This document shows, one piece after another, positions 30,086 through 45,317 of a DNA stretch of 64,000 nucleotides. Position 1 is the stretch's first letter. Every line of letters starts with the position of its first letter. Position numbers and translations under genes: made by a program. The stretch comes from a virus: IMG/VR virus record IMGVR_UViG_3300033153_008361, positions 1 through 64,000 of that record. The stretch is one strand, 5' to 3'. The notes under the pieces are model-generated. The model saw nothing but the letters and a program-made list of their open reading frames with translations. It was not told the origin of the DNA and did not search any database.

Positions 30086-30330
30086 GCTAACCCCCTTATC
30101 TCCGCTTCGATCTCCTGGATTTGTCGTTTGAGACCGCGGGCCTCAAATTCGATTAATTCCAGTTCTTCTTTCATATCTGGTAGTTTTTTACGAAGTTCGG
30201 CCAGTTTTTCAGCATTTTCGGCCTTTTTTCGGTCGTTTTTCAGCACTTCCACAGCTTCATCAGAACCGAAATGAAGCCGCGTCATAGCGGAACAAAAATC
30301 AATTGTTTCGTCGGTCTGATGTTTAGCCAT
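30082..30330 (-). CDS. hypothetical coiled-coil protein
   Basis: ORF track. It has a GGGGGGATA RBS. Confidence 0.5.
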   Translation of the reverse strand: MAKHQTDETIDFCSAMTRLHFGSDEAVEVLKNDRKKAENAEKLAELRKKLPDMKEELELIEFEARGLKRQIQEIEAEIRGLA

Positions 30331-30628
30331 TATCCCCCCGCCGTTTTACCTCTCCATAGGTCTTTTGCTCCCACTCCTGGAAAGTGGCAATGGTTGTTGG
30401 GGTGACTTCCAGCGCACCGCCAGGAAGCCGATCCAGCACTCCGCGCCGGCCGAGTCTACGCAAACACCTTCGAGCGCCATTGTCAATGTTGTCCCGGTGC
30501 GGGAAGGCGGTCGTGGGCACTACCCGGTCCCCCACATAGTAAAACTTGTCGAAAAGCCTCTCTAAGGCTCTCCCCTGTGCGGCCGTGATCTCGATTTTTG
30601 TAAGCTGCTCCGCTTCATCTCTGTCCAT
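30323..30628 (-). CDS. first gene of the leftward operon, hypothetical
   Basis: Start moved to ATG 30628 (MDRDEAEQ). It is preceded by GGAAGGAGTAGCGAAATG, a copy of the conserved initiation motif. Confidence 0.55.
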   Translation of the reverse strand: MDRDEAEQLTKIEITAAQGRALERLFDKFYYVGDRVVPTTAFPHRDNIDNGARRCLRRLGRRGVLDRLPGGALEVTPTTIATFQEWEQKTYGEVKRRGDNG

Positions 30629-30648
30629 TTCGCTACTCCTTCCTAATA

Positions 30649-30970
30649 CCCCCATATGTGGCCCTGGCTGAGCCTAAACCCGCGTTTTGGGCCGGCCGTG
30701 TCTACATATGGGGGGTCTGGTGCGGCTTGTAGTAACTACAATAGCATCGTCCAACCTTCAAGTTACTACCCGTTGCCCGGATTCCACAGGTCGTCCACCG
30801 TCACCTTGTACCGTGTCTTGCGGCTCAGCTATTAGCCGATTAAAAGCCGTGTCCTGCGGCCGGCCGGTGTTCCGCGTCTCCTTCTCCTACCTTGTTAAAG
30901 CAGGTCCGGCCGTTCCCCCGCGCCCTAAGCACAAGGACTACCGGACCTGCGAGGTTTAACCTACCGCACC
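30649..30970 (-). ncRNA. candidate structured RNA / long structured 5' leader of the leftward operon
   Basis: Nested perfect stems are present. They are 30649-59/30704-14 (11 bp), 30719-25/30964-70 (7 bp, closing), 30729-37/30761-69 (9 bp) and 30900-09/30941-50 (10 bp). A direct repeat CCGTGTCYTGCGG lies near 30821 and 30848. There is no credible ORF. The strand is inferred from the promoter at 31124-31152. Confidence 0.45.
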
Positions 30971-31022
30971 GTAAAGGGCTGTTTTATATGGTCGTCACGC
31001 TTCGACCTATACTTTTGTTAAA

Positions 31023-31114
31023 GAATCGCCCTGGACAATAATTCTACTTATCCCTGATTGCTCATCAACGTGCGGGTCAATTCGCAATACCTTATATATG
31101 GTGCCAGGGCGATT
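31023..31114. promoter_or_regulatory. 11-bp inverted repeat pair flanking 70 nt
   Basis: AATCGCCCTGG (31023-33) pairs with CCAGGGCGATT (31104-14). It lies immediately downstream of the predicted leftward transcription start. Confidence 0.5.
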
Positions 31115-31123
31115 ACGCTTTCT

Positions 31124-31152
31124 ATAATATCAGATGTTATAGTGTTGGTCAA
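31124..31152 (-). promoter_or_regulatory. sigma70-like leftward promoter
   Basis: The minus strand reads TTGACC (31152-47), a 17-nt spacer, then TATTAT (31129-24). Confidence 0.5.
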
Positions 31153-31607
31153 GGGCAAAGCTGCACAGGCTTGAGCTATATGGCTCAGCTGGGGGGGCTT
31201 GGGATCTCGTCACCCATTTTAGGCTATCGAATCCGGCCGTTGAATCCTACCATGATCGATTATGATAACCTAGATTGTAATAATCGATCAGGCGGTCCGC
31301 CTGATGACAGGCAGAAGCAGCGGAGATCGAGCGGTCCGCCTGTCTCCCTGATGACACAGAAGCAGAAGCGGAGATCGCCTGAGCGGACCGCGGTTTTTTT
31401 CTGTTTGTTTTTTTCTGTCTGCTTAGATAATGTTTTTCTGTGTCTGTGTCGCTGTCTCCCTGTCTGCCTGATGAGACACAGAAGCGGACCGCCTGATCGG
31501 TCTGTGTGTGTGTTTGATGAGACAGAAGCGGACCGCCTGATCGGTCTGTGTGTCTCCCTGTGTGGCGATCTCTGTGTGTGTCTGCTTCTGTGTCCGCTTC
31601 TGTGTCT

Positions 31608-31631
31608 CCGCCTAATACAGGCGGGTTTTTT
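31608..31631 (+). terminator. terminator-like hairpin
   Basis: CCGCCT-aatac-AGGCGG is followed by GTTTTTT. Confidence 0.55.
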
Positions 31632-31747
31632 CTGTCTGTGTGTCGAGATCAGGCGGAGATCGGACCGCTCAGGCGATCTCTGCTTCTGTGTCGCATTCTA
31701 AGCGGAGACAGGCGGAGATCAGGCGGTCCGCTTTCTATATAGTACAG

Positions 31748-31772
31748 ACCGCCTATTTTTGTGGCGGTTTTT
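31748..31772 (+). terminator. terminator-like hairpin
   Basis: ACCGCC-tatttttgt-GGCGGT is followed by TTTT. It sits just upstream of the rightward promoter. Confidence 0.5.
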
Positions 31773-31786
31773 CCCTGTGATCTCAC

Positions 31787-31816
31787 TTGACAATAATTGA
31801 CATTATAGGTTATGAT
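31787..31816 (+). promoter_or_regulatory. sigma70-like rightward promoter
   Basis: TTGACA (31787-92), an 18-nt spacer, then TATGAT (31811-16). It is followed by the hairpin GGTCCGCGG-aaaaa-CCGCGGACC. Confidence 0.45.
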
Positions 31817-31882
31817 TTAGGTCCGCGGAAAAACCGCGGACCGCTCAGGCAGACACAAGAACACACAAGGAGTAAAGCGATA

Positions 31883-32356
31883 ATGACAGGCATTACAGAG
31901 AATACAGGAAAAACCGATCTAATTATTAGAGATCACAGACTCACAGAAGCGGACCGCCTGTATAAAAAATCATTCGATCTACACTTGAAAGCGGAGACAC
32001 AACTCGCACTATCTGAGATCATACGAGATCAGGCGGTCCGCTTAAAACTACAGGCGGAGAAAGCAGAAGCAGAAGCGGAGACAGGCGATCATTATATGGT
32101 TTTTCATTTTACTTGTGATCTAGTCATAGGGCACAATTTTACAGGGAGTGAAGTTATATTTTCCGCTATAGATGAGATCGAGATCATAAGACACACAGAA
32201 GCGGACCGCAAAAAATACGATCAATTAATTGTCCGCTTCTGCTTAGAAAAAAATCCGCTATTCCATATTGATACATTGTATTTTACTCTGAGCGATATAT
32301 CACATATTGACGATCACACAGGCGGACAATATAAACTCACAGAGATCACAATATAA
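31883..32356 (+). CDS. small TEADR-motif protein, paralog family member
   Basis: ATG 31883 follows AAGGAGTAAAGCGATA. The track start at 31787 is the promoter TTGACA. The protein has TEADRL, AEAEAE, DHYMVF and EIEI blocks shared with 32596-32913. Confidence 0.65.
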   Translation: MTGITENTGKTDLIIRDHRLTEADRLYKKSFDLHLKAETQLALSEIIRDQAVRLKLQAEKAEAEAETGDHYMVFHFTCDLVIGHNFTGSEVIFSAIDEIEIIRHTEADRKKYDQLIVRFCLEKNPLFHIDTLYFTLSDISHIDDHTGGQYKLTEITI

Positions 32357-32411
32357 CGGACCGCGGACCGCTCAGGCGGTCCGCCTGTACTTTACAAGGA
32401 GTAAAGCGATT
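32357..32411 (+). repeat. intercistronic hairpin-plus-RBS cassette, copy 1
   Basis: CGGACC-GCGGACCGC-TCAG-GCGGTCCGC-CTGTACTTTAC-AAGGAGTAAAGCGATT, then ATG. Confidence 0.85.
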
Positions 32412-32537
32412 ATGATCAAAGTATGGTTTTTTTGTGTTCTTGTTAGCATTCTGCTTTTGTACTACACAGAAGCGATCACAGCGGTTTTTTTTCTGATCGC
32501 TGTGGTTTTATATGAAACATGGAAGACGATCAATTAA
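32412..32537 (+). CDS. 41-aa membrane micropeptide
   Basis: The ATG follows the conserved cassette. The product is MIKVWFFCVLVSILLLYYTEAITAVFFLIAVVLYETWKTIN. Confidence 0.5.
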   Translation: MIKVWFFCVLVSILLLYYTEAITAVFFLIAVVLYETWKTIN

Positions 32538-32595
32538 TATCAGACCGCGGACCGCTCAGGCGGTCCGCCTGTACTTTACAAGGAGTAAAGCGATA
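32538..32595 (+). repeat. intercistronic hairpin-plus-RBS cassette, copy 2
   Basis: The stem is 32547-55/32560-68 (9 bp, perfect) with loop TCAG. CTGTACTTTACAAGGAGTAAAGCGATA follows. Confidence 0.85.
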
Positions 32596-32913
32596 ATGAA
32601 CGATCACATATTGACAGAAGCAGCGGAGACAGAAGCGGACCGCCTAAGCATAGAAGCGGAGATCAAGCGATCTCACACTCGACACAGAGAGACTCACCAC
32701 AGCGATCATTTTATGGTTTTTTCTGTCTGTGGTGATTTTACCCATTATGATCACCTGATCGCTTCTGTCTCCCTGATGGCAGACACAGAGATCGAGATCG
32801 ATTATATTGGCGAGCACACTATGATCGGTCTGATTATTTTGCCAAATGCTACAGAAGCGGAGATCACAGAAGCGGACCGCCTGTATAGTGAATTACAAGG
32901 AGTAAAGCGATAA
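32596..32913 (+). CDS. small TEADR-motif protein, paralog family member
   Basis: ATG 32596 (MNDHILTEAAETEADRL). DHFMVF and EIEI blocks are shared with 31883-32356. The ORF ends inside the next initiation motif (TAATG). Confidence 0.65.
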   Translation: MNDHILTEAAETEADRLSIEAEIKRSHTRHRETHHSDHFMVFSVCGDFTHYDHLIASVSLMADTEIEIDYIGEHTMIGLIILPNATEAEITEADRLYSELQGVKR

Positions 32914-33410
32914 TGACACACAACAATTGTGGTTTTAACAGACCACAGAGATCGAGCGGTCCGCGGTCCGCTTCTGTACTTTCTCCGCCTGAGTGTGAGA
33001 ACACATGGCGATCAGAGATAAAAAACCGCCACACATGCAAAGTAAAAAATACACAGGGAGACTCCGATCTCACTCTGATCTCTGACACACAGGAGATCGA
33101 TCACATTGGCGATTATTTAGGCATTAATCGCCTGAGTGAGGATTATGGTTGTCTGTTTGTCGAGATCGCTGATGGCGATTATGGTCATATATTGGGCTGT
33201 GAGTCTAATATTCCATACTTAGAAAAAATATTATATGACATAGATTATTATGAGGAAACATGGCGGTTTTTTCAGGAGATCGCAGAAAAACACAGCGAGA
33301 TCTATTGTCCTATGTGTGGCGGAGACTCCGCTCACTTGGGCACACTTGGCACACTTGATCATTATCGCTGTGTAATGTGTCATATGGAATTCTCACGATC
33401 TCAGGAGTAA
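32913..33410 (+). CDS. hypothetical protein with C-terminal zinc ribbon
   Basis: It follows the conserved initiation motif. It contains CPMCGG...HYRCVMC. Confidence 0.6.
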   Translation: MTHNNCGFNRPQRSSGPRSASVLSPPECENTWRSEIKNRHTCKVKNTQGDSDLTLISDTQEIDHIGDYLGINRLSEDYGCLFVEIADGDYGHILGCESNIPYLEKILYDIDYYEETWRFFQEIAEKHSEIYCPMCGGDSAHLGTLGTLDHYRCVMCHMEFSRSQE

Positions 33411-33420
33411 AGCGATAATA

Positions 33421-33476
33421 ACAGACCGCGGACCGCTCAGGCGGTCCGCCTACACTTTACAAGGAGTAAAGCGATA
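33421..33476 (+). repeat. intercistronic hairpin-plus-RBS cassette, copy 3
   Basis: It has the same unit with CTACACTTTAC. It is preceded at 33404 by a degenerate initiation motif lacking an ATG (GGAGTAAAGCGATAATA). Confidence 0.85.
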
Positions 33477-33791
33477 ATGAACGATCAAACAATAGCAGAG
33501 ATGGCATATACAGAAGCGGACCGCCTGAACACAGAAGCGGACCGCCTACAGGCAGAAGCGATCAAAATACAGGCAGAAGCGGACCGCCTGATCGAAAAAA
33601 TCACGAGCGGACCGCCTGATCTTGTGTATTACCAATACACAGGGAGATCGGATTTTTTCAATTATGAGAATTCGGGTGATCTCTGTTTTCACACTCCGCC
33701 ACAAGCGGAGAAAGCAGCGATCAATAATGGATTAATTACATGGCGAGTGATCATGGTCTGTGAGTATGTTGTCAAGACAGGGAAAGTATAA
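33477..33791 (+). CDS. small TEADR-motif protein, paralog family member
   Basis: MNDQTIAEMAYTEADRLNTEADRLQAEAIKIQAEADRL... Confidence 0.65.
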   Translation: MNDQTIAEMAYTEADRLNTEADRLQAEAIKIQAEADRLIEKITSGPPDLVYYQYTGRSDFFNYENSGDLCFHTPPQAEKAAINNGLITWRVIMVCEYVVKTGKV

Positions 33792-33792
33792 A

Positions 33793-34458
33793 ATGAACGA
33801 TCTAATACTGGCAGAAGCGGAAAAAAAGAAAGCAGAAGCGGACCGCCACAGAAAAACCGCGGACCGCCTGATCGCAGAAGCGGACCGCCTGTCAAACGTA
33901 TTTTATCTTAGAGATGAGATCGCAGAGAAAGCGGACCGCCTACAGGCAGAAGCGGACCGCCTGATCGCTTTCGCTGATCGCCTGATGGCAGAAGCGGAGA
34001 AAGCAGAAGCGGACCGCCTGATCGATAAAATCAGAAGCGGAGAAAAAATCAGAACATGGAAACATAAAACCGGCCTGTTTTTTATCGATCAGGAGATCAC
34101 AGAGATCGAGATCGAATTATGGCAGACAGGCAGAAGCAGAAGCGGAGACAGAGATCGCCTGTCTTATGTTTTAAGTGAGAATAGTGTGCCTGTATTTTAT
34201 GGTTTATCTGATCTAGGAATTCCGCCACACATGGCAATAGATAGCGATCTCTCTGTGTGTGCCTGTCTGTTTTTTCTCGCACTCAGGCAGGGAGACACAG
34301 ACAGTGATTATTTTGAAAACTACACAGACACACAATTACAATGGATACACTCACAGACCGCCACAGAGATCAGGGAGATCGTGAGCATATGTGAGGAAAA
34401 TGATCTCACACTCGATCAGGCGATCTCTGTTATGTTAGCATGGGAAACAGAAAAATAA
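33793..34458 (+). CDS. ADRL-repeat coiled-coil protein, paralog family member
   Basis: ATG 33793 (MNDLILAEAEKKKAEADRH). Seven ADR(L/H) repeats are present. It has a GGGAAAG RBS. Confidence 0.65.
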   Translation: MNDLILAEAEKKKAEADRHRKTADRLIAEADRLSNVFYLRDEIAEKADRLQAEADRLIAFADRLMAEAEKAEADRLIDKIRSGEKIRTWKHKTGLFFIDQEITEIEIELWQTGRSRSGDRDRLSYVLSENSVPVFYGLSDLGIPPHMAIDSDLSVCACLFFLALRQGDTDSDYFENYTDTQLQWIHSQTATEIREIVSICEENDLTLDQAISVMLAWETEK

Positions 34459-34516
34459 TATCAGACCGCGGACCGCTCAGGCGGTCCGCCTGTACTTTAC
34501 AAGGAGTAAAGCGATT
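34459..34516 (+). repeat. intercistronic hairpin-plus-RBS cassette, copy 4
   Basis: It is identical in core to copy 2. Confidence 0.85.
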
Positions 34517-34969
34517 ATGATCAGTTTAGAAGCAGCAAAAAATCTCACACATGGCGAGATCATTTATCACATAAGTCATAGGAATGCCGATCAGACTCCG
34601 CAGAGATGGCGCATTAATGGCAAAGTGAAAACATGGAGAACCAGACCACAGGAGATCAGTATACCTATAAAACACGGTTTATATGATTATGGTTATTTAA
34701 CACACAATGATCTTGATCTTGTGTGTCTGTCAGAAGCAGAAGCGGAGATCGTGACGAACTCAGGCACAGAGATCGGACATTATGATTATTTATATCGAAA
34801 CATAAAACACAGAGATTATATTTATGGCTGTGTGTTACCACAGGCGGACCGCCTACAGAGATCGATCATTGTAGGCGGAGATCGGACAATTGATGATCAG
34901 GGAGTGACAACAATTACAGGCGGAATCACCTATTATTTTCCTATAGGTGAGGAATCCGGCCTAAATTGA
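34517..34969 (+). CDS. hypothetical protein
   Basis: ORF track. It follows the conserved cassette. Confidence 0.6.
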   Translation: MISLEAAKNLTHGEIIYHISHRNADQTPQRWRINGKVKTWRTRPQEISIPIKHGLYDYGYLTHNDLDLVCLSEAEAEIVTNSGTEIGHYDYLYRNIKHRDYIYGCVLPQADRLQRSIIVGGDRTIDDQGVTTITGGITYYFPIGEESGLN

Positions 34970-34998
34970 CAGAAAAACCACAAACAGACCACAAACAG

Positions 34999-35036
34999 AC
35001 CACAGAGATCGATCAGGTGATCTCTGTGGTTTTTTC
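34999..35036 (+). terminator. rho-independent terminator
   Basis: ACCACAGAGATC-gatcaggt-GATCTCTGTGGT is followed by TTTTT. Confidence 0.8.
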
Positions 35037-35560
35037 TGTGTGTAGACCACAGAAGCAGCGGAGATCGGACCGCCTGAGCGGTCCGCCTGTCTGCCTGTCT
35101 GCTTCTGCGGTCTGTGTGCCTGTCTCCCTGTCACTTTGATCGAGATCGGACCGCTCAGGCGGTTTTTTTCCGATCAGGCGGTCCGCCTGTCTGCCTGTCT
35201 GCTTCTGCTTCTGTGGTCTGTGTCATCAGGCAGAAGCAGAAGCAGAGATCGCCTGAGCGGACAATACAGGCGATCTCTGTGTCTGCCTGTCTGCTTCTGC
35301 CTGTCTCCGCTGCTTCTGCTTCTGCTTCTGCGGTCTGTGTGTCTGTCTCCCTGTCACTTTGATCGAGATCGGACCGCTCAGGCGGAGATCGATCAGGCGG
35401 TCCGCCTGTCTGCTTCTGTTATCCCAGGACACAGACCGCCACAGAGATCAGGCGGACCGCGGACCGCTCAGGCGGAGATCGATCAGGCGGTCCGCCTGTC
35501 TTCCCAGCTGGGATCGGCCGACTGGCAGAAGCAGCGGAGATCAGGCGATCATGGTTCATT
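35037..35560. repeat. word-repeat island B (ORF-free)
   Basis: It uses the same vocabulary. A 62-bp direct repeat (35101-35162 and 35324-35385) has one mismatch. A long imperfect palindrome lies at 35224-35300. Confidence 0.85.
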
Positions 35561-35691
35561 CACACGCGCAAAAATGATCGGTGAGCAGAATTTTATAATG
35601 TTTTCGGCCGGGTCTTTTTGGTTTTTCTGGTTTTTTTTATTGGTTTACGGCCGGGTTTTTCCGGCGCGATTACACACAAGGAGTAAAGTAT

Positions 35692-36063
35692 ATGATCACA
35701 GCTATAGTTATGGGCGCATATGGTAAAAAAGATGAGTACAGAGTGGATCGACTTGCTAACCGTGGCGAGTGGTTCGGTAAAACTTGGTTCGTTGGGATCG
35801 GTTGCGGGTTCGATATACACCGCGTAGTAGTAGAAGCGGACAATGAGTCAGAGGTGATCGACGCCTTGACGGATTCGGCCGCTGGTCACTTGATAAAAGT
35901 TGATGAGGAATGCCCCCATCAAGATCCTGATCAATGGGATCAATGTAATTGCACATTTGCCGGTAATTTTTCTGATCGCGTCGATCTGGATGACATTCGA
36001 ATTCTGAAGCGTTGCAAAGTAAAATATTTTGAACCGGCCGATCGTTGGTTGGATATTAGCTAA
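35692..36063 (+). CDS. hypothetical protein
   Basis: ORF track. It has an AAGGAGTAAAGTAT start region. Confidence 0.6.
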   Translation: MITAIVMGAYGKKDEYRVDRLANRGEWFGKTWFVGIGCGFDIHRVVVEADNESEVIDALTDSAAGHLIKVDEECPHQDPDQWDQCNCTFAGNFSDRVDLDDIRILKRCKVKYFEPADRWLDIS

Positions 36064-36420
36064 ACAGACAGACACAGACCACAGGATCAGACAGGATCGG
36101 CCGGTTTTCGGCCGGTCCTGAGTGTGATCGCGTCTCTGTATGGTTTTACCTGTCTGCCTGTCTGCCTGTCTGCCTGAGCGGAGATCGGACCGCTTGATCG
36201 GTCTGCTTCTGCTTCTGTGTCTCCGCTTGTGCCTGTCTGCCTGTGTTCTCATTGGGCGGACCGCTCAGGCGATCTCTGTGTGTGTGTCCGCCTGTCTGCC
36301 TGTGTCCTCATCAGGCGGACCGCTCAGGCGATCTCTGTGTCTCCCTGTCTGCCTGTCTGCTTCTGTGTGTCTGCCTGTGTCCTCATCAGGCGGAGATCGG
36401 CCGGTTCTACCACAGGTAAA
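36064..36420. repeat. word-repeat island C (ORF-free)
   Basis: It has CTGTCTGCCTGTCTGCC runs. GCGGACCGCTCAGGCGATCTCTGTGT occurs twice, near 36256 and 36315. Confidence 0.85.
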
Positions 36421-36532
36421 ACGCGCCGGCGCGGAAAGTCTGAACGGCCGTTCGATCCTTGCCGGCCAACGGTCCGCGGCGAGTGTGGTCGAGCGGGCAG
36501 CGGGCGGACCGTGGGCGGGGGCGCTTCTACTA

Positions 36533-36640
36533 TATACACGCGGGATCGACATAGGCGAGCAGAATTTACACGCGCTAAGGGGTTCGGCCGCCTTAAAAAA
36601 TACACGCGGCCGGGGAGGTGCGAGCAGAATTTACACGCGG
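36533..36640. promoter_or_regulatory. tandem ~65-bp unit carrying a 20-bp perfect direct repeat (operator or iteron candidate)
   Basis: GCGAGCAGAATTTACACGCG occurs at 36555-74 and 36620-39. ATACACGCGG occurs at 36534 and 36600. A related copy (CACACGCGC...GAGCAGAATTT) lies at 35563-35594. Confidence 0.6.
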
Positions 36641-36697
36641 ATCGAAGGGGGGCGGGCTGGAGTTGGCAGCAAATCGGGCGGATCGGTTCTCATTTAC

Positions 36698-36725
36698 TTG
36701 ACAAGCAATTATAAGGTGTTATTAT
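36698..36725 (+). promoter_or_regulatory. sigma70-like promoter
   Basis: TTGACA (36698-703), a 16-nt spacer, then TATTAT (36720-25). Confidence 0.5.
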
Positions 36726-36781
36726 CTATCTATCCGACGCGGGCCGCGGGCGGTCCGCCTTAGTAATAAGGAGCAAGCGAA

Positions 36782-37549
36782 ATGATAAATGATCAGAATT
36801 TAGAGATCGGGCAATTGGTAAAGGTTAGCAGATCGCTCACCGTGGGCGATCTATATGGGGCGGGACATTCTCAGGCGGGGGAAGTGGTGATCGTGGCGGG
36901 GGAAGTCGGCCGGGTTATATCGCCTGTCATTGCAGAGGCGCGGGACGGGTCGAAGTTGGATCGGCCGTGGGTTGTGGTTCGCTTTTTCTTCACTTTGCCG
37001 GATCACTACCGGCGCGATCCAACCTGTGAACCGGTCCACAATATAAAGATCGGGCGGCTGGAAGCGGTGACAGAGGCGGAAGCGGTGATCCTGATTATGA
37101 TCGGGCGCTATGGTAAACCGTGGGCCAATACGAGACAGGATCGGGCGGCTATGGCCTCATATATGGATCAGCGGCCGTTATATGACGATCCCGGCGTTTT
37201 GGGTAACTGGAGATCAGCGGCTTCTATCTTGTCAGAAGTGGCGGAGCGGGTGAGCCTTGCTGCTTGGGGGGTTCATCCGGCCGGGGAGACGGATCTCACC
37301 GTATACATGGAAGCGGGCGATCCGGGTGAGCGGGTCAATTGTGAGGGGTTCGTTGTGGACGGGGACGGGGGGATCGTCTTTGATACTGTAGGCGGCGGGC
37401 CGTATCTCTGCGAAAGTTGCAACAAATCGATCCGGTTCTTGACATGCTCAGGGCGGGCGATCTGTGAGGCATGTCTGGACGCGGAGATCGCAGAGGCGGA
37501 AGCGGTGACAGGGGCGGGCTATATTACGCCTAATGAGGCGATCATATAA
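36782..37549 (+). CDS. hypothetical protein
   Basis: ORF track. It has an AAGGAGCAAGCGAA start region. The C-terminus contains CESC...CEAC. Confidence 0.65.
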   Translation: MINDQNLEIGQLVKVSRSLTVGDLYGAGHSQAGEVVIVAGEVGRVISPVIAEARDGSKLDRPWVVVRFFFTLPDHYRRDPTCEPVHNIKIGRLEAVTEAEAVILIMIGRYGKPWANTRQDRAAMASYMDQRPLYDDPGVLGNWRSAASILSEVAERVSLAAWGVHPAGETDLTVYMEAGDPGERVNCEGFVVDGDGGIVFDTVGGGPYLCESCNKSIRFLTCSGRAICEACLDAEIAEAEAVTGAGYITPNEAII

Positions 37550-37914
37550 TGGCTATACGAAACGGTATAAAGTGGGGTAACGGGCGGATCTGGCAAATGA
37601 TCGGGAAAGCAGCAAGGGAAGCGGAGCGGGCCGAGCAGATCGAGCGGGTGAAAGCAGAGACGGCCGCGGGGGGTTTTCCGCTGTGCCTCTGTGACATATG
37701 CCTATATTATGAAAACGATCCCGCGGACCGGGCCAAGTGGCGGATCATTATGCACAGGCGGCGATCACAACTGATCGCGCTTAGCCGTCACTATCTGCGA
37801 AACTTTCACGGCTTCACAGCGGCGGAGTGTGATCAGTTCGGTCCTGAGTGTGATCGGGTCATTCTGGCACATAATGACGCGGCGATCCGTTGTGGCGGTG
37901 ATCCTATTGTATAA
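37549..37914 (+). CDS. hypothetical protein
   Basis: ORF track. It has a TAATG junction. Confidence 0.6.
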   Translation: MAIRNGIKWGNGRIWQMIGKAAREAERAEQIERVKAETAAGGFPLCLCDICLYYENDPADRAKWRIIMHRRRSQLIALSRHYLRNFHGFTAAECDQFGPECDRVILAHNDAAIRCGGDPIV

Positions 37915-37961
37915 CCAACGCGGGCCGGGTTCGGCTTGCCTTAGCTAAGGAGTAAAGCGAA

Positions 37962-40900
37962 ATGATACAGATCCACGATAAACAGACAGAAGCGAACGCG
38001 GGCCAAGCGGAACGGGCGACACTTTACCACCGATCCGGGCTTGGCCTTGGTTATAACAAGCGGGAAGTAAAGCGGATCGAATGGGCGCGGGGTCAATATG
38101 CCCAATATGATCAGGCGGTCCGGCTACGCTGGAGAGAACCCCGGCAACGCAAAGATCGCCAAACATGGCTCACTTATAAGCCGGACGCGGTGATCGTGGC
38201 GGGCTGGAATAACCCCGATCCGCCGTCCTCATATAACACAACTAAGGACAAAGACGGAACGATCCAACGCGGGAAATATACCAGTTTCGATCCCCGCTTT
38301 ACTTCCGATTTTCGGTCATGGCTTGCGGACGCGGGCCTCACGGTGATCGCGGACTTTCACAAGGCGGAGACAGGCGATCAGGGGTCGATCTCCCTTACAG
38401 AGATCGCGGAGCGGGGGCGGGCTGAGCGAGAAGCAGAAGCGGAGAAAGCAACGCGGATCGCGTCTGTTATAACGGAAGCAGAACCGGCCGAACTGGAAGC
38501 AGAGACGGAAGCGGGCGATCTTGGGGCTTATGATACGGCGGATAATTGGATCAATCGTTGGGGTGACTTCTACAAAGACACACAACAACACAACGCGGAA
38601 GCGGCCAAACTGGAAACAGAACCCGATCCCCTTGCTGATTATTCTAACGGGGATCTACTTGGTGATTATTTGGATCTGTGTCCTCATTATGATCAATCTG
38701 ATGAGGATATAACGGAGATCAGGACCGTACTCACGGCGCGGGGCTTCTTATTTGTGGCTCAGGCGGACGGGGGCGGGCCAACAGAGGCGGAAGTCAAAAC
38801 CACGGCGGATCGGCTCATCAGGGAAGCAAAAACGGCGGACCGGGCCAACGGACGCGGGCCGGGGTTCGATATATGGACTAAGGCACAAGCAGCGGCCAAA
38901 GCAGAAGCGGCGGAAGCTGAGCAACACGCGGAGACAGAACCCGCGGACCGGGTAAAGATTGAACCGGCCGACGCGGATCGCTTTGAATATATCGAACCCG
39001 AACCCGATCCAGTTATGCCAGCGGGCGCGGCGGAGTCAATCACAGGTAAAGAAGTTGGAAAAATGATCCGGCCACGGTTGCGGGCTATCTTTCCCGGCGT
39101 CACGTTCTATGTAAGGACTGATCATAGTTCACTTGATATAAGCTGGATCGACGGGCCAACGGGGGCGGAAGTCAAAAAGATCGCGGGCCAATATGACGGC
39201 GGCGGCTTCGATGGCATGATCGATCTTGGTTATTGTATTTATCATTGGTTAATGCCAGATGGATCGACGCGGATCGCCTATTCCAGCGGTACAGCGGGAT
39301 CGGGGGGTTCTGTGTCCGCGTTTGGCGGTGACGGGTCAAAGCCTGATCCGGGGGCGCGGTTGGTTAGCTTCCACACGGAATATATAAACTGTAAACGGGC
39401 GCATTCGGCCGACTTCTTAAAGCGGGCGGGGGAGCAAATCAGCGGTGAGTATAATTGGCCTGTGCCAAAGATTGAAGCTAGTACAACATGGATCTCACAC
39501 TCCAAAACTATTGACGGCGCGTCATTTGTCCATGATCCGATCAACGCTCCAGCCCCCGCGGATCATTTTCGGGCGGGCGGGTCGCCTTATGTCCGATCTT
39601 TGGGCGGGGTTTTCGATCACGCGGCTCACGATATAAGCTATTATGAACCGCCAAAAGCAAAGCCGAAAGCTAAGCGGGCCGCGGGCGGGGCTTCTGTCGA
39701 TTATGATCCCGCGGAAGCGGTGATCACCTATAGTGAGCGGAACGGCGCGATCTGGACATGGATCGAAACGGTAAAACCCCCGGCCGATGTGAGGGACGGG
39801 CTAACGGGGATCGGCTTCTTTTGGTGGCGGAAGCGGGGCAAATGGGCCGCCAAGCAAGAGATCGCAGAGGACACGATCCGCGCTATACTGGAAGGGGGAT
39901 CGGGCGCTCAGGGAGACGGGGACGGGGGCGGAGAAGCTGATCCGCCGTCCTCATCCCCAAGCAAGCCAAAGACTAAGGCCGAACCGGGGACAGAACCCGA
40001 TCAAGCTAAGGCGGAGAAGCTGATCGCCTTGGCGGACTCCTTCGACAAACAGATCCAAAAGAAGCGGGACACGTTCAAAGGGGCTAACCTCACTCACAGG
40101 CGGGCGGAGTTCATAGCGTCCGCAAACTATGACGCGGATCGAATGCAAGAAGCACAAATGATCCTGATCGCCTTGGCGGACCTGTGGACAGTTGGAAGCG
40201 TCCCGGCGCAATTTAGGAAAATGGGAACTAAAAAAACGGCGCTGGAGTTGACTCACAATATCCGGGCGCGGGCTAAGTATGGGGATAAGTACCCATCAGA
40301 CTATAATGATCGTGTTTGGGGGTCATGGGGCGATTATAACGCGGCTCACGCATGGGCGGACCGGGTGATCTCAGGGGTCGATAACACTGAGCGAGACGCG
40401 GAGCGAAAGATCGCCGGGCTGGAGCAAAACGCCAAATTTGCCAAGATCCGCGGGTTTTTCCCCACTCCGCGGGCCGTGGCGGATCTTATGCTGGAGCATG
40501 TGAACCTCACAGAGGGGGATCTTGTTTTAGAACCCTCAGCGGGATCGGGCGCTCTATGCGATATGATCGCGGAATACTTCCCACGCGCCACGCTTCACGC
40601 GGTCGAAGTGTCTCACATGCTCAGGGAGATCCTCACCTTAAAGGGGCACGAGTTGATCGGCCGGGACATTTACGATCTCGATCCTGTGGATAGCATCGGA
40701 AAATATGACGCGATCATAATGAATCCCCCATTTGAAAAAATGCAAGACGCCGATCACGTTCGCTTTTGTTATGCGATGTTAAAAAGCGGCGGAACGCTAG
40801 TGAGCGTTATGTCCCCGTCACCCTTCCACAATTCCACTCACGCGGCGGCGGATTTCCGATCATGGTTCGATACATTTGGCGGTGAGAAGTTCGATCTCCC

Positions 40901-40967
40901 CGTTGGCAGCTTCAAAAAGTCCGGGACGGGCGTAAGTTCTTGTTTTATTGTCATCAGCAAAGATTAG
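37962..40967 (+). CDS. large polyvalent-type protein with C-terminal gamma-class N6-adenine DNA methyltransferase domain
   Basis: The C-terminus has motif I (LEPSAGSGAL) followed by motif IV (IIMNPPF). The upstream 800 aa contain Ala/Glu-rich linkers and unassigned globular modules, for example FYVRTDHSSLDISWIDGP and GIGFFWWRKRGKW. Confidence 0.75.
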   Translation: MIQIHDKQTEANAGQAERATLYHRSGLGLGYNKREVKRIEWARGQYAQYDQAVRLRWREPRQRKDRQTWLTYKPDAVIVAGWNNPDPPSSYNTTKDKDGTIQRGKYTSFDPRFTSDFRSWLADAGLTVIADFHKAETGDQGSISLTEIAERGRAEREAEAEKATRIASVITEAEPAELEAETEAGDLGAYDTADNWINRWGDFYKDTQQHNAEAAKLETEPDPLADYSNGDLLGDYLDLCPHYDQSDEDITEIRTVLTARGFLFVAQADGGGPTEAEVKTTADRLIREAKTADRANGRGPGFDIWTKAQAAAKAEAAEAEQHAETEPADRVKIEPADADRFEYIEPEPDPVMPAGAAESITGKEVGKMIRPRLRAIFPGVTFYVRTDHSSLDISWIDGPTGAEVKKIAGQYDGGGFDGMIDLGYCIYHWLMPDGSTRIAYSSGTAGSGGSVSAFGGDGSKPDPGARLVSFHTEYINCKRAHSADFLKRAGEQISGEYNWPVPKIEASTTWISHSKTIDGASFVHDPINAPAPADHFRAGGSPYVRSLGGVFDHAAHDISYYEPPKAKPKAKRAAGGASVDYDPAEAVITYSERNGAIWTWIETVKPPADVRDGLTGIGFFWWRKRGKWAAKQEIAEDTIRAILEGGSGAQGDGDGGGEADPPSSSPSKPKTKAEPGTEPDQAKAEKLIALADSFDKQIQKKRDTFKGANLTHRRAEFIASANYDADRMQEAQMILIALADLWTVGSVPAQFRKMGTKKTALELTHNIRARAKYGDKYPSDYNDRVWGSWGDYNAAHAWADRVISGVDNTERDAERKIAGLEQNAKFAKIRGFFPTPRAVADLMLEHVNLTEGDLVLEPSAGSGALCDMIAEYFPRATLHAVEVSHMLREILTLKGHELIGRDIYDLDPVDSIGKYDAIIMNPPFEKMQDADHVRFCYAMLKSGGTLVSVMSPSPFHNSTHAAADFRSWFDTFGGEKFDLPVGSFKKSGTGVSSCFIVISKD

Positions 40968-40994
40968 GGCCGGGAACGGTCAAAGGATCGTATT

Positions 40995-41195
40995 ATGTAC
41001 TATGTATTTTCCTACTATACCAAAAGATACAACGCCAAAGGGGAGATCGTGACCGAGTACGCGCCACGGCTACACACGATCAAAAAGAATATTGAGACGG
41101 AAGCGGAAGCACAACAGGCGGTGAGGGATTATGACGCCACTCACAAACGCGGGCCGCTCGGCCGGGTTGCTGGATATGATGACCAAAGACGCTAA
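40995..41195 (+). CDS. hypothetical protein
   Basis: ORF track. It has an AAAGGA RBS. Confidence 0.5.
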   Translation: MYYVFSYYTKRYNAKGEIVTEYAPRLHTIKKNIETEAEAQQAVRDYDATHKRGPLGRVAGYDDQRR

Positions 41196-41208
41196 AGGAG
41201 ATCAACCA

Positions 41209-41622
41209 ATGAACGATCAAGAAAAAATACACGCGGACACGGAACACGCGCCAGAAGTCGATCCGGGCTTCTCGGGGCTTCACACGCGGGAAACGTGGGA
41301 GCAAATCTCACAGGCGCTATTCAAGATTGAACAGACGGCCGTAACGCTCCAGCGCCAAGCTAAGCGGGCGCAATACTACGCGGGCGCGGCTAGTTCGCTT
41401 CTTTTCTTGCTGGAGCAAGAACCCGAAACGCTAGAAAAAATGCTTGATTCTTTGGGGCTTCACATGGATGAGCACGATCAGCGGATCGATCTCCTTACAA
41501 GCAGTACGGCGGACTCTGATCAATGGGCCGTAGCATCGGCCGAAACTCTGATCGCGTTACATGAACTCAATCAACTTTGGGGTACATTAGATCCTTTAGT
41601 ACAAGAGTTAGGTATTAACTAA
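41209..41622 (+). CDS. hypothetical protein (MND N-terminus like the 32.6-34.5 kb paralogs)
   Basis: ATG 41209 follows AAAGGAG. It starts ATGAACGATCA, as do three upstream paralogs. Confidence 0.55.
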   Translation: MNDQEKIHADTEHAPEVDPGFSGLHTRETWEQISQALFKIEQTAVTLQRQAKRAQYYAGAASSLLFLLEQEPETLEKMLDSLGLHMDEHDQRIDLLTSSTADSDQWAVASAETLIALHELNQLWGTLDPLVQELGIN

Positions 41623-41672
41623 ATAAACACGCGCTAGAGCGATCCAGCGCCTTAAAATAAGGAGTAAGCGAA

Positions 41673-42350
41673 ATGAGTCACAATGTATTTATGACAGAGG
41701 ACGTTAACACATTCAGCACATTAATGTATCAATACGGCCACGGATCGAGCGGGCGCGGGCCTTGGCGGGTGATTGGCGGTGACGATCTCCGTTCTGAGGG
41801 GATCAAATTTGACGCCACTCCGCGCCACTGGTACATAACTAACACGCTCACAGGCGTTTCTAAGCGGATCGGACCGTCCACAGGCCGGGGCACTAATTAC
41901 TTTGATCGGGCGCGGTTATTGGCCGAGCAACGTAACCAAGACCACTGGAGCAAGAACCCGCCAACGCTGAACACACCTGATGAGATCGCGGACCTGTGGA
42001 TCGAGCGGGATCGGATCGTCCTGGAGTTTAACGGATCTGATAAGGTTGGGATCAGGGTACGCGGTTTTAATGCTGTGATCAATGCCTATTTTGAGAAGCT
42101 ACCCGGCCGGGGTTGGGTCGAAATTGGCGGACCGTTCCAAGGTTTTAACCGGGTACTTGGGCCGGGGTTCAATTGGTCCTCAGAGGGGCTACAGGTACAG
42201 ATCCGCGGCGGCCAATGGAAGCATAACAAGATCCAACCGGGCGAAATTAAGCGGCTGGAAGGGCTGATCGCGGGTTGGCTGGAGTCTCAACACCTACGCG
42301 ATCTGGAAGTCAAGGTAACACGCACTAGGGGCGGGGAGCGTCTGTACTAA
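41673..42350 (+). CDS. hypothetical protein
   Basis: ORF track. It has the conserved initiation motif. Confidence 0.6.
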   Translation: MSHNVFMTEDVNTFSTLMYQYGHGSSGRGPWRVIGGDDLRSEGIKFDATPRHWYITNTLTGVSKRIGPSTGRGTNYFDRARLLAEQRNQDHWSKNPPTLNTPDEIADLWIERDRIVLEFNGSDKVGIRVRGFNAVINAYFEKLPGRGWVEIGGPFQGFNRVLGPGFNWSSEGLQVQIRGGQWKHNKIQPGEIKRLEGLIAGWLESQHLRDLEVKVTRTRGGERLY

Positions 42351-42562
42351 TGGACAAAAACGCGCTCACGATCACAATAAACGGCCGTAATTGGCGGGGG
42401 TCACGCTTTGTAGATGAGGTTGATCTCGCCGTCCTGGAAAAAATGATCGCCATGTACCTGGAGCACAAACAGTACGCGATCTTTGAAACACGCCAAGCGC
42501 CGGATCATATTGTTTATGATTATACGGTCACGGTAACGCGCTCCAGCGGGGGATCGGCTTAA
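42350..42562 (+). CDS. hypothetical protein
   Basis: ORF track. It has a TAATG junction. Confidence 0.5.
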   Translation: MDKNALTITINGRNWRGSRFVDEVDLAVLEKMIAMYLEHKQYAIFETRQAPDHIVYDYTVTVTRSSGGSA

Positions 42563-42843
42563 TGTTCACTTTTGAGACTGATTGTACCTGTAGTACGGCG
42601 CGGTGGATCAACAATATGGTTGATCAGGCGCGTGAGGTTACTTATGAGACGCTAGTACGCCGGGTAGGGGTCGATCAATTGGCCTCTGTGTTTCCCTTCT
42701 ACGAGTGGGGGCGCGGGACGCGGGCGGGCCTCAGAATGAAAGATGACTATATGATCAGCTACTATCGGAGCAAATACCGCGGGCGGACCTGCTACTATGT
42801 TTGTCATTCATCTATTGAATATATTTTCACTGAGTCCGGCTAA
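42562..42843 (+). CDS. hypothetical protein
   Basis: ORF track. It has a TAATG junction. Confidence 0.5.
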   Translation: MFTFETDCTCSTARWINNMVDQAREVTYETLVRRVGVDQLASVFPFYEWGRGTRAGLRMKDDYMISYYRSKYRGRTCYYVCHSSIEYIFTESG

Positions 42844-42863
42844 GGCCGGGAAGGAAAAGCGAA

Positions 42864-43547: not shown

Positions 43548-43611
43548 GGCGTTTGGGGTATCACAGGTTATATCGGGCCACTTAGGGCCGTAAGGCCAAA
43601 GGATAAGCGAA

Positions 43612-44971: not shown

Positions 44972-44987
44972 TAAGGAGTAAAGCGAA

Positions 44988-45317
44988 ATGAAGAAAAACA
45001 AATCATTCAAATGGAAAGTTACGCTTCTGACAGACTCGGGCAACTTCAAAGGATCTCCCTTCTCTAGTAGCCGATTTGACGCGGAAGGGTTCAGGATCGG
45101 GGACATAATCGTAACGCAAATCAAGGCCGACGCGGTAACAATCGGGCGGAACTATGTCCAACGAAAACCGCCCTATGATAAGCGTAAGGCTATCATCCAA
45201 CGCCGTTGGGGAGCGATCAAGCCGTCTCAGGTTCTTTATTCCCAAGGCATGATAATCGAAAAGAATCAGGCTCACCATATCGATCCGGCTTCGCCAACCG
45301 GCTATAGCGTTATATAA
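44988..45317 (+). CDS. hypothetical protein
   Basis: ORF track. It has the conserved initiation motif. Confidence 0.55.
   Translation: MKKNKSFKWKVTLLTDSGNFKGSPFSSSRFDAEGFRIGDIIVTQIKADAVTIGRNYVQRKPPYDKRKAIIQRRWGAIKPSQVLYSQGMIIEKNQAHHIDPASPTGYSVI

What the first reader, a model, noticed from the sequence alone, without database searches (positions are those of the whole stretch)
31280..36760. About 50 copies of the palindromic heptamer CGGWCCG in 5.5 kb
Counting line by line I find about 50 CGGACCG or CGGTCCG sites between 31280 and 36760. Fewer than one is expected by chance for a 7-mer with one degenerate position. Most sit within GCGGWCCGC. In the whole left-hand 30 kb I noticed only a handful (for example near 16701, 20600 and 25325). 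More copies continue at lower density into 37.7-40.4 kb (GCGGACCGGG-type). The motif is the core of the repeated hairpins and of the in-frame 15-mer. CGGWCCG is the recognition sequence type of RsrII-like enzymes and contains GGWCC (AvaII type). A phage segment saturated with a restriction-type palindrome is the opposite of normal palindrome avoidance. That suggests the site is protected, for example by one of the encoded methyltransferases, or is used as a binding or recognition site.
Basis: partly seen in the sequence, partly recalled or inferred. Interest (0 to 1): 0.65.

Follow-up and report, generated by a model that had tools for sequence, protein, structure and literature searches.

The report
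Palindrome-cored repeat vocabulary in phage early region
A new ~90 kb phage starts its early genes with 5 kb of DNA built from a few short repeated "words"; one word has the palindrome CGGWCCG at its centre, which is real and very unusual in density but most likely a regulatory hairpin/repeat family, not proven restriction or methylation biology.

Summary
The count is exact. There are 50 CGGWCCG sites in 31280-36760, against 0.5 expected from shuffles of that region. 42 of them are GCGGWCCGC.

The sites are not copies of a few long duplications. They sit in 38 different 21-mer contexts and 36 flank combinations. All belong to one mosaic family of short words that covers 72% of 31280-36400: 93% of three non-coding blocks and 56-79% of seven small ORFan early genes.

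The complete unit is a perfect 9-bp-stem hairpin joined to a conserved ribosome-binding cassette, placed in front of early genes. Half-units and fragments occur in both orientations and inside ORFs, where they are translated (EADRL and others).

No variant in the core breaks the inner heptamer. 14 of 16 Ala-Asp-Arg tripeptides are written GCGGACCGC.

The genome lacks about half of all 6-bp palindromes, yet it is enriched for CGGCCG (9x) and for GATC. GATC is enriched through synonymous codon choice, and the only relative found shares this.

My best reading is an ESAS/SAS- or PeSL-like regulatory hairpin cassette family spread by recombination (confidence 0.4). A protein-binding array and a methylation target remain open. 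No relative carries the region, so the function is inferred, not shown.

The parts
31280..36760 (.). CGGWCCG-rich segment: 50 sites. The repeat-word vocabulary proper runs from 31280 to about 36400.
   Evidence: 72% of 31280-36400 is covered by 8-mers present at least 4 times in the block; control regions give 3-10%.
31124..31152 (-). Leftward sigma-70-like promoter (TTGACC-17-TATTAT) that bounds block A.
31161..31786 (.). Non-coding block A between the divergent promoters. It has 7 CGGWCCG sites, 93% word coverage and two terminator-like hairpins with T-runs (31607-31625 and about 31757-31780).
   Evidence: RNA fold z = -9.1; no ORF on either strand.
31787..31816 (+). Early promoter P1 (TTGACA-18-TATGAT, 11 of 12 matches).
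31820..31842 (+). 23-bp palindrome GGTCCGCGG-AAAAA-CCGCGGACC across the predicted start of the P1 transcript. It could be an operator or a 5' hairpin.
31883..34969 (+). Seven small acidic ORFan early genes: g1 31883-32356, g2 32412-32537, g3 32596-32913, g4 32913-33410, g5 33477-33791, g6 33784-34458, g7 34517-34969. Together they carry 18 sites, 15 of them in the frame xCG GWC CGx (Ala-Asp/Val-Arg).
   Evidence: no homologue for g4.
32363..32414 (+). Hairpin plus translation-initiation cassette in front of g2: GCGGACCGC-TCAG-GCGGTCCGC, then CTGTACTTTACAAGGAGTAAAGCGATTATG. Near-identical copies lie at 32547-32598 (g3), 33428-33479 (g5) and 34468-34519 (g7).
   Evidence: D3, D11, D13; -25 to -27 kcal/mol, z about -4.
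34997..35032 (+). Strong bidirectional terminator-like hairpin after g7 (15 pairs followed by a T-run).
34970..35691 (.). Non-coding block B: 9 sites, 93% word coverage up to 35560, an inverted copy of the cassette hairpin at 35065-35086, polar CCTGTCTGC runs, and A-free stretches of up to 82 nt.
   Evidence: (z = -16).
35692..36063 (+). g8, an ordinary ORFan gene between blocks B and C. It has 11% word coverage and no CGGWCCG.
36064..36697 (.). Non-coding block C: 5 sites and a 59-nt tandem unit repeated about 3 times at 36214-36406. From about 36400 the composition changes (CGGCCG returns, and there are two copies of GAGCAGAATTTACACGCG).
   Evidence: (D16).
36698..36759 (+). Promoter P2 (TTGACA-16-TATTAT) followed by the palindrome GGCGGTCCGCC at about +18 to +28, upstream of g9.
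37962..40967 (+). Polyvalent protein (LPD29 plus a C-terminal amino-methyltransferase domain). It carries four lineage-specific CGGWCCG sites and 71 GATC.

Best explanation
CGGWCCG is the invariant centre of one word, usually GCGGWCCGC. That word belongs to a small, largely self-complementary repeat vocabulary that has colonised the first ~5 kb of the rightward early arm of a novel ~90 kb tailed phage.

The functional unit is a cassette placed between small early genes. It consists of a perfect 9-bp-stem, 4-nt-loop hairpin, followed by a second small hairpin that displays the Shine-Dalgarno sequence in its loop, followed by the start codon.

I infer that on the polycistronic early mRNA the GC-rich stem acts as a cistron boundary, either for stability or processing, or as the binding site of a regulator. 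Related palindromes sit at about +1 to +28 of both early promoters.

The many solitary copies are half-cassettes and fragments. I infer they were spread and kept uniform by recombination or template switching between cassettes. They occur in both orientations in three non-coding blocks and inside ORFs, where they are simply translated.

The match to an RsrII-type site is tolerated, not causal. In a genome purged of most short palindromes, the stems can only be built from the few GC-rich palindromes the phage can afford.

Shown: the anatomy, the counts, the modularity, the codon invariance and the folding energies. Inferred: the RNA-level role and the recombinational spread.
For: - Complete units: four near-identical hairpin plus ribosome-binding cassettes lie in front of g2, g3, g5 and g7, with variants before g1 and g4. 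They fold at -25 to -27 kcal/mol with z about -4.
- The start-associated sequence AAGGAGTAAAGCGAWAATG occurs 9 times, against 0.04 expected.
- The cassettes are the only GATC-free parts of the region: 0 GATC in 417 nt, against 19-32 per kb elsewhere.
- Cassette sequence is read as protein. The g3 C-terminus, and TEADRLY in g1 and g3, come from the 3' half of a cassette.
- The same words are read in other frames and in the other orientation: SGPPD in g5, RSSGPRSAS in g4, GRSRSGDRDRL in g6.
- 14 of 16 Ala-Asp-Arg tripeptides use GCGGACCGC, where codon usage predicts about 2%.
- Modularity: the 50 sites show 36 flank combinations drawn from about 6 half-site flank types and 38 distinct 21-mers.
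- Words cover 72% of the block, including 56-79% of the genes.
- The block has its own composition. The genome-wide CGGCCG is absent from 31235-35514, where about 9.6 copies are expected, and codon usage differs.
- Published analogues exist: SAS/ESAS (PMC3203893) and PeSL (PMC2839356, PMC4122927).
Against: - Only 10 of 50 sites form local perfect hairpins. The other 40 have no nearby partner, yet none has a mutated heptamer. Neutral relics should decay.
- Block A lies upstream of P1 and may not be transcribed, so an RNA role cannot cover its 7 sites.
- The cassettes contain no promoter and no proper U-tract, so they are neither PeSLs nor classical terminators.
- No related genome carries the region. 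Recombination at cassettes is inferred from internal mosaicism alone.
- The phage clearly can select short palindromes at the DNA level (GATC). This makes a direct DNA-level role for CGGWCCG plausible.
Confidence: 0.4

Rival explanations
1. The sites form a dense array of binding sites for a sequence-specific dimeric DNA-binding protein, from the phage or the host. The protein would coat or silence the immediate-early segment, as an operator or 'stoperator'-like roadblock array or as a nucleoprotein structure. CGGWCCG is the recognised palindrome and the word flanks are secondary.
For: - The inner 7 bp are invariant in all 50 copies. The eight 9-mer variants that keep the heptamer change only an outer base.
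- The orientation of the central base is balanced in non-coding DNA, 19 A to 13 T, as expected for a symmetric DNA site.
- Palindromes lie at +1 to +28 of both early promoters.
- Seven sites lie in the probably untranscribed block A.
- Ten sites extend to 13-19 bp palindromes such as CAGGCGGWCCGCCTG.
- The first gene of the leftward operon (30323-30628, minus strand) belongs to a small conserved family. Its only similarities, all weak, are to winged-helix repressors: PhiH1 repressor-like, LexA DNA-binding domain, MntR, AbiEi.
- Precedents: Cluster O mycobacteriophages have 34 invariant copies of TGTTCGGNNNCCGAACA (PMC4351075), and Cluster A phages have stoperators (PMC9283540, PMC6550527).
Against: - No binding protein is identified, and the winged-helix similarities are not significant (E = 0.3-0.8).
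- Structure models were unusable (pLDDT 45 and 51).
- Homologues of that gene in five viral contigs have no adjacent repeat arrays.
- Site spacing shows no helical phasing.
- A 7-9 bp core is short for an operator. Only one site (31293) has both extended half-sites.
- This model does not explain the other co-amplified words.
Confidence: 0.25
2. CGGWCCG is a substrate for one of the phage's methyltransferases, possibly the one carried on the polyvalent protein. The cluster would be an epigenetically marked or shielded segment, analogous to highly iterated palindromes that are tied to a cognate methyltransferase.
For: - Three amino-methyltransferase genes are present alongside three over-represented palindromes: GATC, CGGCCG and CGGWCCG.
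- The methyltransferase domain of the polyvalent protein resembles proteins annotated as structural or internal virion proteins in Pseudomonas phages.
- GATC is demonstrably selected at synonymous sites in the early arm, and also in a relative with 53% amino-acid identity. DNA-level selection of palindromes therefore does occur in this lineage.
- The strict invariance of a 7-bp palindrome is typical of restriction-modification-type recognition.
- The link between iterated palindromes and methyltransferases has been described for cyanobacteria (PMC4390886).
Against: - The enrichment is confined to 5.5 kb and is tied to longer words and hairpins. Outside the region CGGWCCG is no more frequent than CGGSCCG.
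- The four sites in the polyvalent gene are not conserved in the relative.
- The methyltransferase specificities are unknown.
- No methylation data exist.
Confidence: 0.15
3. Restricted 'safe-word' vocabulary. The DNA that is exposed first in a host with very many restriction systems is assembled by re-using a few sequences proven to be uncuttable. CGGWCCG is simply part of a safe word.
For: - Palindrome avoidance is extreme across the genome.
- Sequence complexity and GATC density form a gradient from 32 kb to about 46-50 kb along the early arm.
- Both true SNPs between samples are synonymous and remove 6-bp palindromes.
Against: - The order of DNA entry is unknown.
- Low complexity by itself removes most k-mers, so the avoidance test is confounded in the core.
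- It does not explain why a palindrome would be chosen as a safe word.
Confidence: 0.08
4. Neutral by-product. Very recent slippage and duplication produced a repeat expansion with no function, or the repeats are an assembly artefact.
For: - Tandem units occur in blocks B and C.
- Contigs from other samples break inside the region.
Against: - An independent assembly is identical over 32654-36760.
- The ORFs stay open, with consensus ribosome-binding sites.
- No decayed cores are seen despite 38 different contexts.
- The cassettes are placed precisely in front of genes.
Confidence: 0.1

Closest known systems
Start-associated sequences and extended SAS (SAS/ESAS) of Cluster K mycobacteriophages (PMC3203893)
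   Same: Both have a conserved asymmetric sequence, containing the ribosome-binding site, immediately upstream of many start codons. In about half of the cases an inverted repeat with a short spacer lies just upstream. The associated genes are unrelated and the function is unknown.
   Different: Here the inverted repeat is a perfect 9-bp GC stem. The units are confined to one early operon. Fragments of the unit pervade coding sequence and three non-coding blocks at about 9 sites per kb. Conservation across relatives cannot be shown.
PeSL (promoter-early stem-loop) cassettes of T4-type phages (PMC2839356, PMC4122927)
   Same: Both are repeated stem-loop cassettes that flank small ORFan genes in a plastic early region, and both are thought to mediate modular shuffling by recombination.
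   Different: No promoter and no U-tract are found in the cassettes here. Shuffling is inferred only from internal mosaicism, not from genome comparison.
17-bp palindromic repeat of Cluster O mycobacteriophages, TGTTCGGNNNCCGAACA, 34 copies (PMC4351075)
   Same: Both have dozens of copies of a palindrome with invariant arms (also CGG...CCG), both between genes and inside them, and the function is unknown.
   Different: The Cluster O repeat is dispersed over the whole genome as an isolated 17-mer. Here the sites are packed into 5.5 kb and embedded in a vocabulary of other repeated words.
Stoperators of Cluster A mycobacteriophages (PMC9283540, PMC6550527)
   Same: Both show many copies of a short site inside transcription units of a phage. 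In Cluster A the immunity repressor binds them to stop elongation.
   Different: Stoperators are asymmetric, orientation-dependent 13-14-mers with a known repressor. Here the site is palindromic and no repressor is known.
Highly iterated palindromes (HIP1 and alternates) linked to cognate methyltransferases (PMC4390886)
   Same: Both involve a GC-rich palindrome far above expectation in a genome that encodes methyltransferases. CGGCCG in this phage behaves this way, being context-free at about 1 per 450 bp.
   Different: CGGWCCG is local, context-bound and about 20 times denser. The methyltransferase specificity is unknown.

Membership tests
SAS/ESAS-like start-associated cassettes | A conserved asymmetric sequence that includes the ribosome-binding site, immediately upstream of the start codons of several unrelated genes | tested here: met
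   AAGGAGTAAAGCGAWAATG occurs 9 times with up to 3 mismatches, against 0.04 expected. See also the alignment.
SAS/ESAS-like start-associated cassettes | An inverted repeat with a short spacer directly upstream, in a subset of the sites | tested here: met
   GCGGACCGC-TCAG-GCGGTCCGC lies upstream of g2, g3, g5 and g7, with a variant before g1.
SAS/ESAS-like start-associated cassettes | Conservation of the sites in related phages in front of orthologous genes | not testable with these tools
   No relative carries the region. The single relative fragment, L145, uses a different ribosome-binding context.
PeSL cassettes | A composite of an early promoter plus a stem-loop terminator | tested here: not met
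   No sigma-70-like promoter lies inside the cassettes. The hairpin is followed by CTGTACTTTAC, not by a U-tract.
PeSL cassettes | Cassettes bound insertions, deletions and replacements between closely related genomes | not testable with these tools
   Only identical copies of this phage were found.
Restriction/methylation target (RsrII-type) or HIP-like iterated palindrome | Context-free over-representation across the genome | tested here: not met
   Outside the core there are 17 sites against 6.7 expected, equal to CGGSCCG with 19. Inside the core every site is part of longer words. CGGCCG, by contrast, does meet this feature.
Restriction/methylation target (RsrII-type) or HIP-like iterated palindrome | A cognate methyltransferase of matching specificity, and modified sites in virion DNA | not testable with these tools
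   Three methyltransferase genes are present, but their specificity cannot be inferred.
Repressor operator / stoperator array | An identified cognate DNA-binding repressor | tested here: inconclusive
   The only candidate is a winged-helix-like protein at 30323-30628 (minus strand), and its similarities are sub-threshold. The structure models have low confidence.
Repressor operator / stoperator array | Sites overlap or closely follow the regulated promoters | tested here: met
   Palindromes lie at 31820-31842 (P1) and 36749-36759 (P2). The leftward promoter has none.
Replication origin iterons | Proximity to the replication genes, DnaA boxes, and an AT-rich unwinding element | tested here: not met
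   The initiator-like HTH protein and DnaB lie at 54-56.5 kb. No DnaA box lies in 31-37 kb.
Chi-like polar motif (GAAGCGG/AGCGG) | Strand polarity independent of gene orientation | tested here: not met
   GAAGCGG follows the coding strand: 2:10 in the left arm and 15:2 in the right arm.
Known RNA families (Rfam) | A covariance-model match | tested here: not met
   No match at the gathering threshold or at E <= 1 with any relevant family.

The most novel reading that the evidence does not exclude
The phage deliberately writes a small set of palindromes into its DNA as substrates for its own three amino-methyltransferases, one of which may travel into the cell on the polyvalent protein. The palindromes are:
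- GATC over the whole early arm, by synonymous codon choice;
- CGGCCG genome-wide;
- CGGWCCG at about 9 per kb in the first 5 kb.

The immediate-early DNA would then be an epigenetically armoured, or self-marked, segment. This would let a phage that has had to purge about half of all 6-bp palindromes survive a host with dozens of restriction systems. Alternatively, methylation could time early-gene shut-off after replication.
Probability: 0.15. Interest if true: 0.85.

Novelty: new variant of a known kind. Interest (0 to 1): 0.55.

Why it matters
If the cassette reading is right, this is an extreme case of a phage regulatory repeat family invading coding sequence. Genes g1-g7 are 56-79% repeat words, which shows how ORFan early genes can be assembled from, or remodelled by, regulatory DNA.

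If the DNA-level reading is right, the phage offers a natural system in which short palindromes are positively selected in a genome under extreme restriction pressure. That would make the link between phage-borne methyltransferases, injected polyvalent proteins and motif composition directly testable.

In either case, three patterns are measurable and have not been reported for a relative of this phage:
- GATC saturation made by synonymous codon choice and shared with a relative at 53% amino-acid identity;
- 9-fold CGGCCG enrichment;
- loss of about half of all 6-bp palindromes.

Tried and rejected
Searches for relatives (little found):
- blastn of 31000-37000 against phage records gave no match.
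- Exact-pattern scans gave nothing in viral contigs. In genome and metagenome contigs they gave only single, chance-level hits in GC-rich DNA.
- g9 and g4 have no homologue among 5.8 billion proteins.
- The polyvalent protein has one relative, on a 4.35 kb contig that ends just upstream of the gene.
- L001, a distant relative through the methyltransferase domain, has no comparable features.
- Look-ups of g1, g4, g5 and g7 for strain variants failed.

Ideas rejected:
- Chi-like polar motif GAAGCGG: it follows the coding strand everywhere.
- Iterons or a replication origin: no DnaA boxes, and the replication genes are 20 kb away.
- Hidden minus-strand genes in blocks A, B and C: no ORFs.
- Known RNAs or tRNAs: none.
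- A 21-bp operator GATCAGGCGGWCCGCCTGATC: only one site has both halves.
- Helical phasing of the sites: none, only a weak excess of multiples of 7.
- Integron attC cassettes and CRISPR-repeat mimics: considered from memory. No core-site motifs were seen, and this was not formally tested.

Attempts that gave nothing usable:
- Structure prediction of two candidate small proteins gave unusable models.
- Neighbourhoods of the winged-helix-like gene's homologues show no repeat arrays.
- Methyltransferase specificity could not be inferred from NCBIfam or PDB matches.

Full report
**Observation.** CGGWCCG occurs 67 times in the window, against 8.9 +/- 2.9 expected from whole-window shuffles. Exactly 50 of these lie between 31293 and 36751. 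Shuffling only 31280-36760, preserving dinucleotides, gives a mean of 0.49 and a maximum of 4 in 1000 trials. 42 of the 50 are GCGGWCCGC, a 9-mer seen only once elsewhere in the window. 50 of the region's 52 GGWCC are inside the heptamer. Contigs from other samples reproduce window 32654-45657 at 99.985% and 36094-39320 at 100%. The structure is therefore not an assembly artefact, at least from 32654 rightwards.

**Genome context.** The window is part of a novel tailed phage.
- It encodes a large terminase 36% identical to those of Salinibacter phages, a weak major-head-protein match, a PAPS-reductase-like protein, an XerC/D-like integrase and DnaB.
- It also encodes two stand-alone DNA methyltransferases and a 1001-aa polyvalent protein (LPD29 plus a C-terminal methyltransferase domain).
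- Genes left of about 31.1 kb are on the minus strand, and genes from 31.8 to about 51.8 kb are on the plus strand.
- Sigma-70-like promoters diverge at 31152-31124 (minus strand) and 31787-31816 (P1, plus strand). A third, P2, lies at 36698-36725.
- Beyond the right end of the window lie minus-strand genes including a 742-aa M23 peptidase-domain protein and a protein of more than 1400 aa (probably tail genes), with no host flank seen.
- The finding therefore covers the very start of the rightward early arm.

**Anatomy of the region.** The segment contains the following parts.
- Non-coding block A (31161-31786), between the divergent promoters.
- Seven small acidic ORFan genes g1-g7 (31883-34969), expressed from P1.
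- A strong terminator-like hairpin (34997-35032).
- Non-coding block B (34970-35691).
- An ordinary gene, g8 (35692-36063).
- Non-coding block C (36064-36697).
- P2, followed by g9 and the polyvalent-protein gene.

32 sites are non-coding and 18 are coding.

**The repeat vocabulary.** 72% of 31280-36400 is covered by 8-mers that occur at least four times in that block on either strand. Coverage is 93% in blocks A, B and C, 56-79% in g1-g7 and 11% in g8, against 3-10% in control regions. The frequent words include GCGGWCCGC, CAGAAGC, GCGGAGATC (14:0 strand bias), CCTGTCTGC (14:1, non-coding blocks only), CACAGA and CCTGATC. Because many words are mutually complementary, the three blocks fold far better than shuffles, with z = -9, -16 and -5.6.

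**The complete unit.** In front of g2, g3, g5 and g7 lies a near-identical cassette.
- It starts with GCGGACCGC-TCAG-GCGGTCCGC, a 9-bp stem.
- CTGTA follows, then a second hairpin, CUUUAC-AAGGA-GUAAAG, that displays the Shine-Dalgarno sequence, then the ATG.
- It folds at -25 to -27 kcal/mol with z about -4.
- The start-associated sequence occurs 9 times in the window.
- The cassettes and the two 5' UTRs are the only GATC-free stretches in a region that otherwise has 19-32 GATC per kb.
- An inverted copy of the hairpin lies in block B.
- Palindromes built from the same half-sites span the predicted start of the P1 transcript (31820-31842) and lie at about +18 to +28 of P2.

**Are the copies independent?** They are not copies of a few long repeats.
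- The 50 sites have 38 distinct 21-mer contexts, 27 distinct 15-mers, and 36 combinations of about six half-site flank types.
- Between 31280 and 36400, every departure from the 9-mer is at an outer base, and none breaks the inner heptamer.
- In coding sequence, 15 of 18 sites are read as xCG GWC CGx.
- 14 of 16 Ala-Asp-Arg tripeptides in g1-g7 are written GCGGACCGC, where codon usage predicts about 2%.
- The same DNA words are also read in other frames and in the other orientation: SGPPD, RSSGPRSAS, GRSRSGDRDRL.
- The C-terminus of g3, and TEADRLY in g1 and g3, are read from the 3' half of a cassette.

So the DNA words are primary and the peptides secondary. All copies belong to one mosaic family. 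None can be called an independent origin by point mutation.

**Genome-wide palindrome landscape.**
- About half of the palindromic hexamers, and several interrupted palindromes, are absent from 64 kb. Median observed/expected for palindromic hexamers is 0.17 in the left arm, against 0.93 for non-palindromes, p = 3e-18.
- CGGCCG occurs 144 times (9x expected). It has no flanking preference and is found in all reading frames. It has a gap at 31235-35514, exactly where CGGWCCG peaks; about 9.6 copies are expected there.
- GATC reaches 47-54 per 2 kb from 32 to 40 kb and decays to background by about 50 kb. CGATCG is almost absent.
- The GATC excess is made by synonymous choice. Asp-[LPHQR] is written GAT-Cnn in 85% of cases in early genes, against 40% in the left arm. 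X-Ile is written nnG-ATC in 59%, against 18%.
- The only relative found is a marine-sediment contig whose polyvalent protein is 53% identical. It shows the same GATC saturation, with 24 of 62 GATC sites in the same alignment columns (1.2 expected). It has no CGGWCCG, and the four sites in the window's gene are lineage-specific.
- Outside the core, CGGWCCG (17 sites) is no more frequent than CGGSCCG (19 sites).

**Interpretation.** The best-supported reading is a family of regulatory hairpin plus translation-initiation cassettes whose GC-rich stem has CGGWCCG at its centre. I infer that fragments of the cassettes were spread and homogenised by recombination or template switching through the early region, including into ORFs. 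This explains several features:
- the complete units placed in front of genes;
- the modular flanks;
- the translated cassette halves;
- the distinct composition of the block;
- the co-amplification of other words.

It explains two features less well: the perfect preservation of the heptamer in 40 solitary copies, and the sites in the probably untranscribed block A.

Those features fit a rival in which CGGWCCG is itself recognised on DNA, either by a dimeric regulator or by a methyltransferase. For the regulator, there is a conserved family of small proteins, encoded by the first leftward gene, whose only similarities are sub-threshold ones to winged-helix repressors. Nothing links that protein to the motif, and its homologues elsewhere have no adjacent repeat arrays. 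For methylation, three methyltransferases and three enriched palindromes coexist, and DNA-level selection of GATC is demonstrated. However, the CGGWCCG excess is local and context-bound, and the specificities are unknown.

**Comparison with known systems.** The cassettes meet the two testable defining features of the SAS/ESAS elements of Cluster K mycobacteriophages (PMC3203893). They fail the promoter and terminator criteria of T4-type PeSLs (PMC2839356, PMC4122927), although they resemble them in flanking small ORFans. The invariant palindrome in dozens of copies recalls the 17-bp repeat of Cluster O phages, whose function is also unknown (PMC4351075), and more loosely the stoperators (PMC9283540). 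What differs from all of these is the density (about 9 per kb), the confinement to one 5-kb block, the accompanying vocabulary, and the degree to which coding sequence is made of it.

**Verdict.** I rate this a new variant of a known kind of phage repeat element, with moderate-to-high interest (0.55). The function is inferred, not shown. A methylome, transcript-end mapping and binding assays would decide between the readings.

Noticed in passing
whole window (for example 6001-64000): Extreme avoidance of short palindromes. About half of the 64 palindromic hexamers are absent, as are CCTNAGG, GCCN5GGC, GACN3GTC, GGTNACC and CACN3GTG. Median observed/expected for palindromic hexamers is 0.17, against 0.93 for non-palindromes.
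   Followed up: partly
window 6000-64000, with gaps at 1-6000 and 31235-35514: CGGCCG occurs 144 times (9x expected). It has no flanking preference and occurs in all reading frames. It is missing exactly where CGGWCCG is densest.
   Followed up: partly
window 31800-50000; locus L145: GATC saturates the early arm, up to 1 per 43 bp, decaying to background by about 50 kb. It is produced by synonymous codon choice, while CGATCG is almost absent. The same holds in the only relative, where 24 of 62 sites are positionally conserved.
   Followed up: yes
window 33858 and 36039, compared with L122: These are the only two true SNPs between samples in 13 kb. Both are synonymous and both remove 6-bp palindromes: CCGCGG at the first, CGATCG plus CGGCCG at the second.
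   Followed up: partly
window 30640-31117 (minus strand): A 478-nt ORF-free leader lies between the leftward promoter and its first gene. It is moderately structured (z = -3.05) and has no Rfam match. It may be a non-coding RNA or a regulatory leader.
   Followed up: partly
window 30323-30628 (minus strand): The first leftward gene encodes a 101-aa protein of a small conserved family with the motif AFPxRDNxDNGxRRxLRxL. Its only similarities are sub-threshold ones to winged-helix repressors. It is a candidate regulator.
   Followed up: partly
window 1-3230 (minus strand): A highly repetitive collagen-like Gly-X-Y gene, probably a tail fibre. It is the other low-complexity part of the window.
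   Followed up: no
window 35583-35600, 36557-36574, 36622-36639: A separate repeated motif, GAGCAGAATTT(A/T)..., occurs upstream of g8 and twice upstream of P2. It may be an activator site or an alternative promoter element.
   Followed up: no
window 37962-40967: The polyvalent protein (LPD29 plus methyltransferase) has a methyltransferase domain that resembles proteins annotated as structural or internal virion proteins of F116/H66-like Pseudomonas phages. This suggests it could enter the cell with the DNA.
   Followed up: partly
window 31883-37549: Nine of the ten early proteins g1-g10 are acidic (pI 4.6-5.9); g10 has pI 8.6. Several start with MND or MI, because their start codons are followed by GATC (ATGAACGATC, ATGATC).
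   Followed up: no
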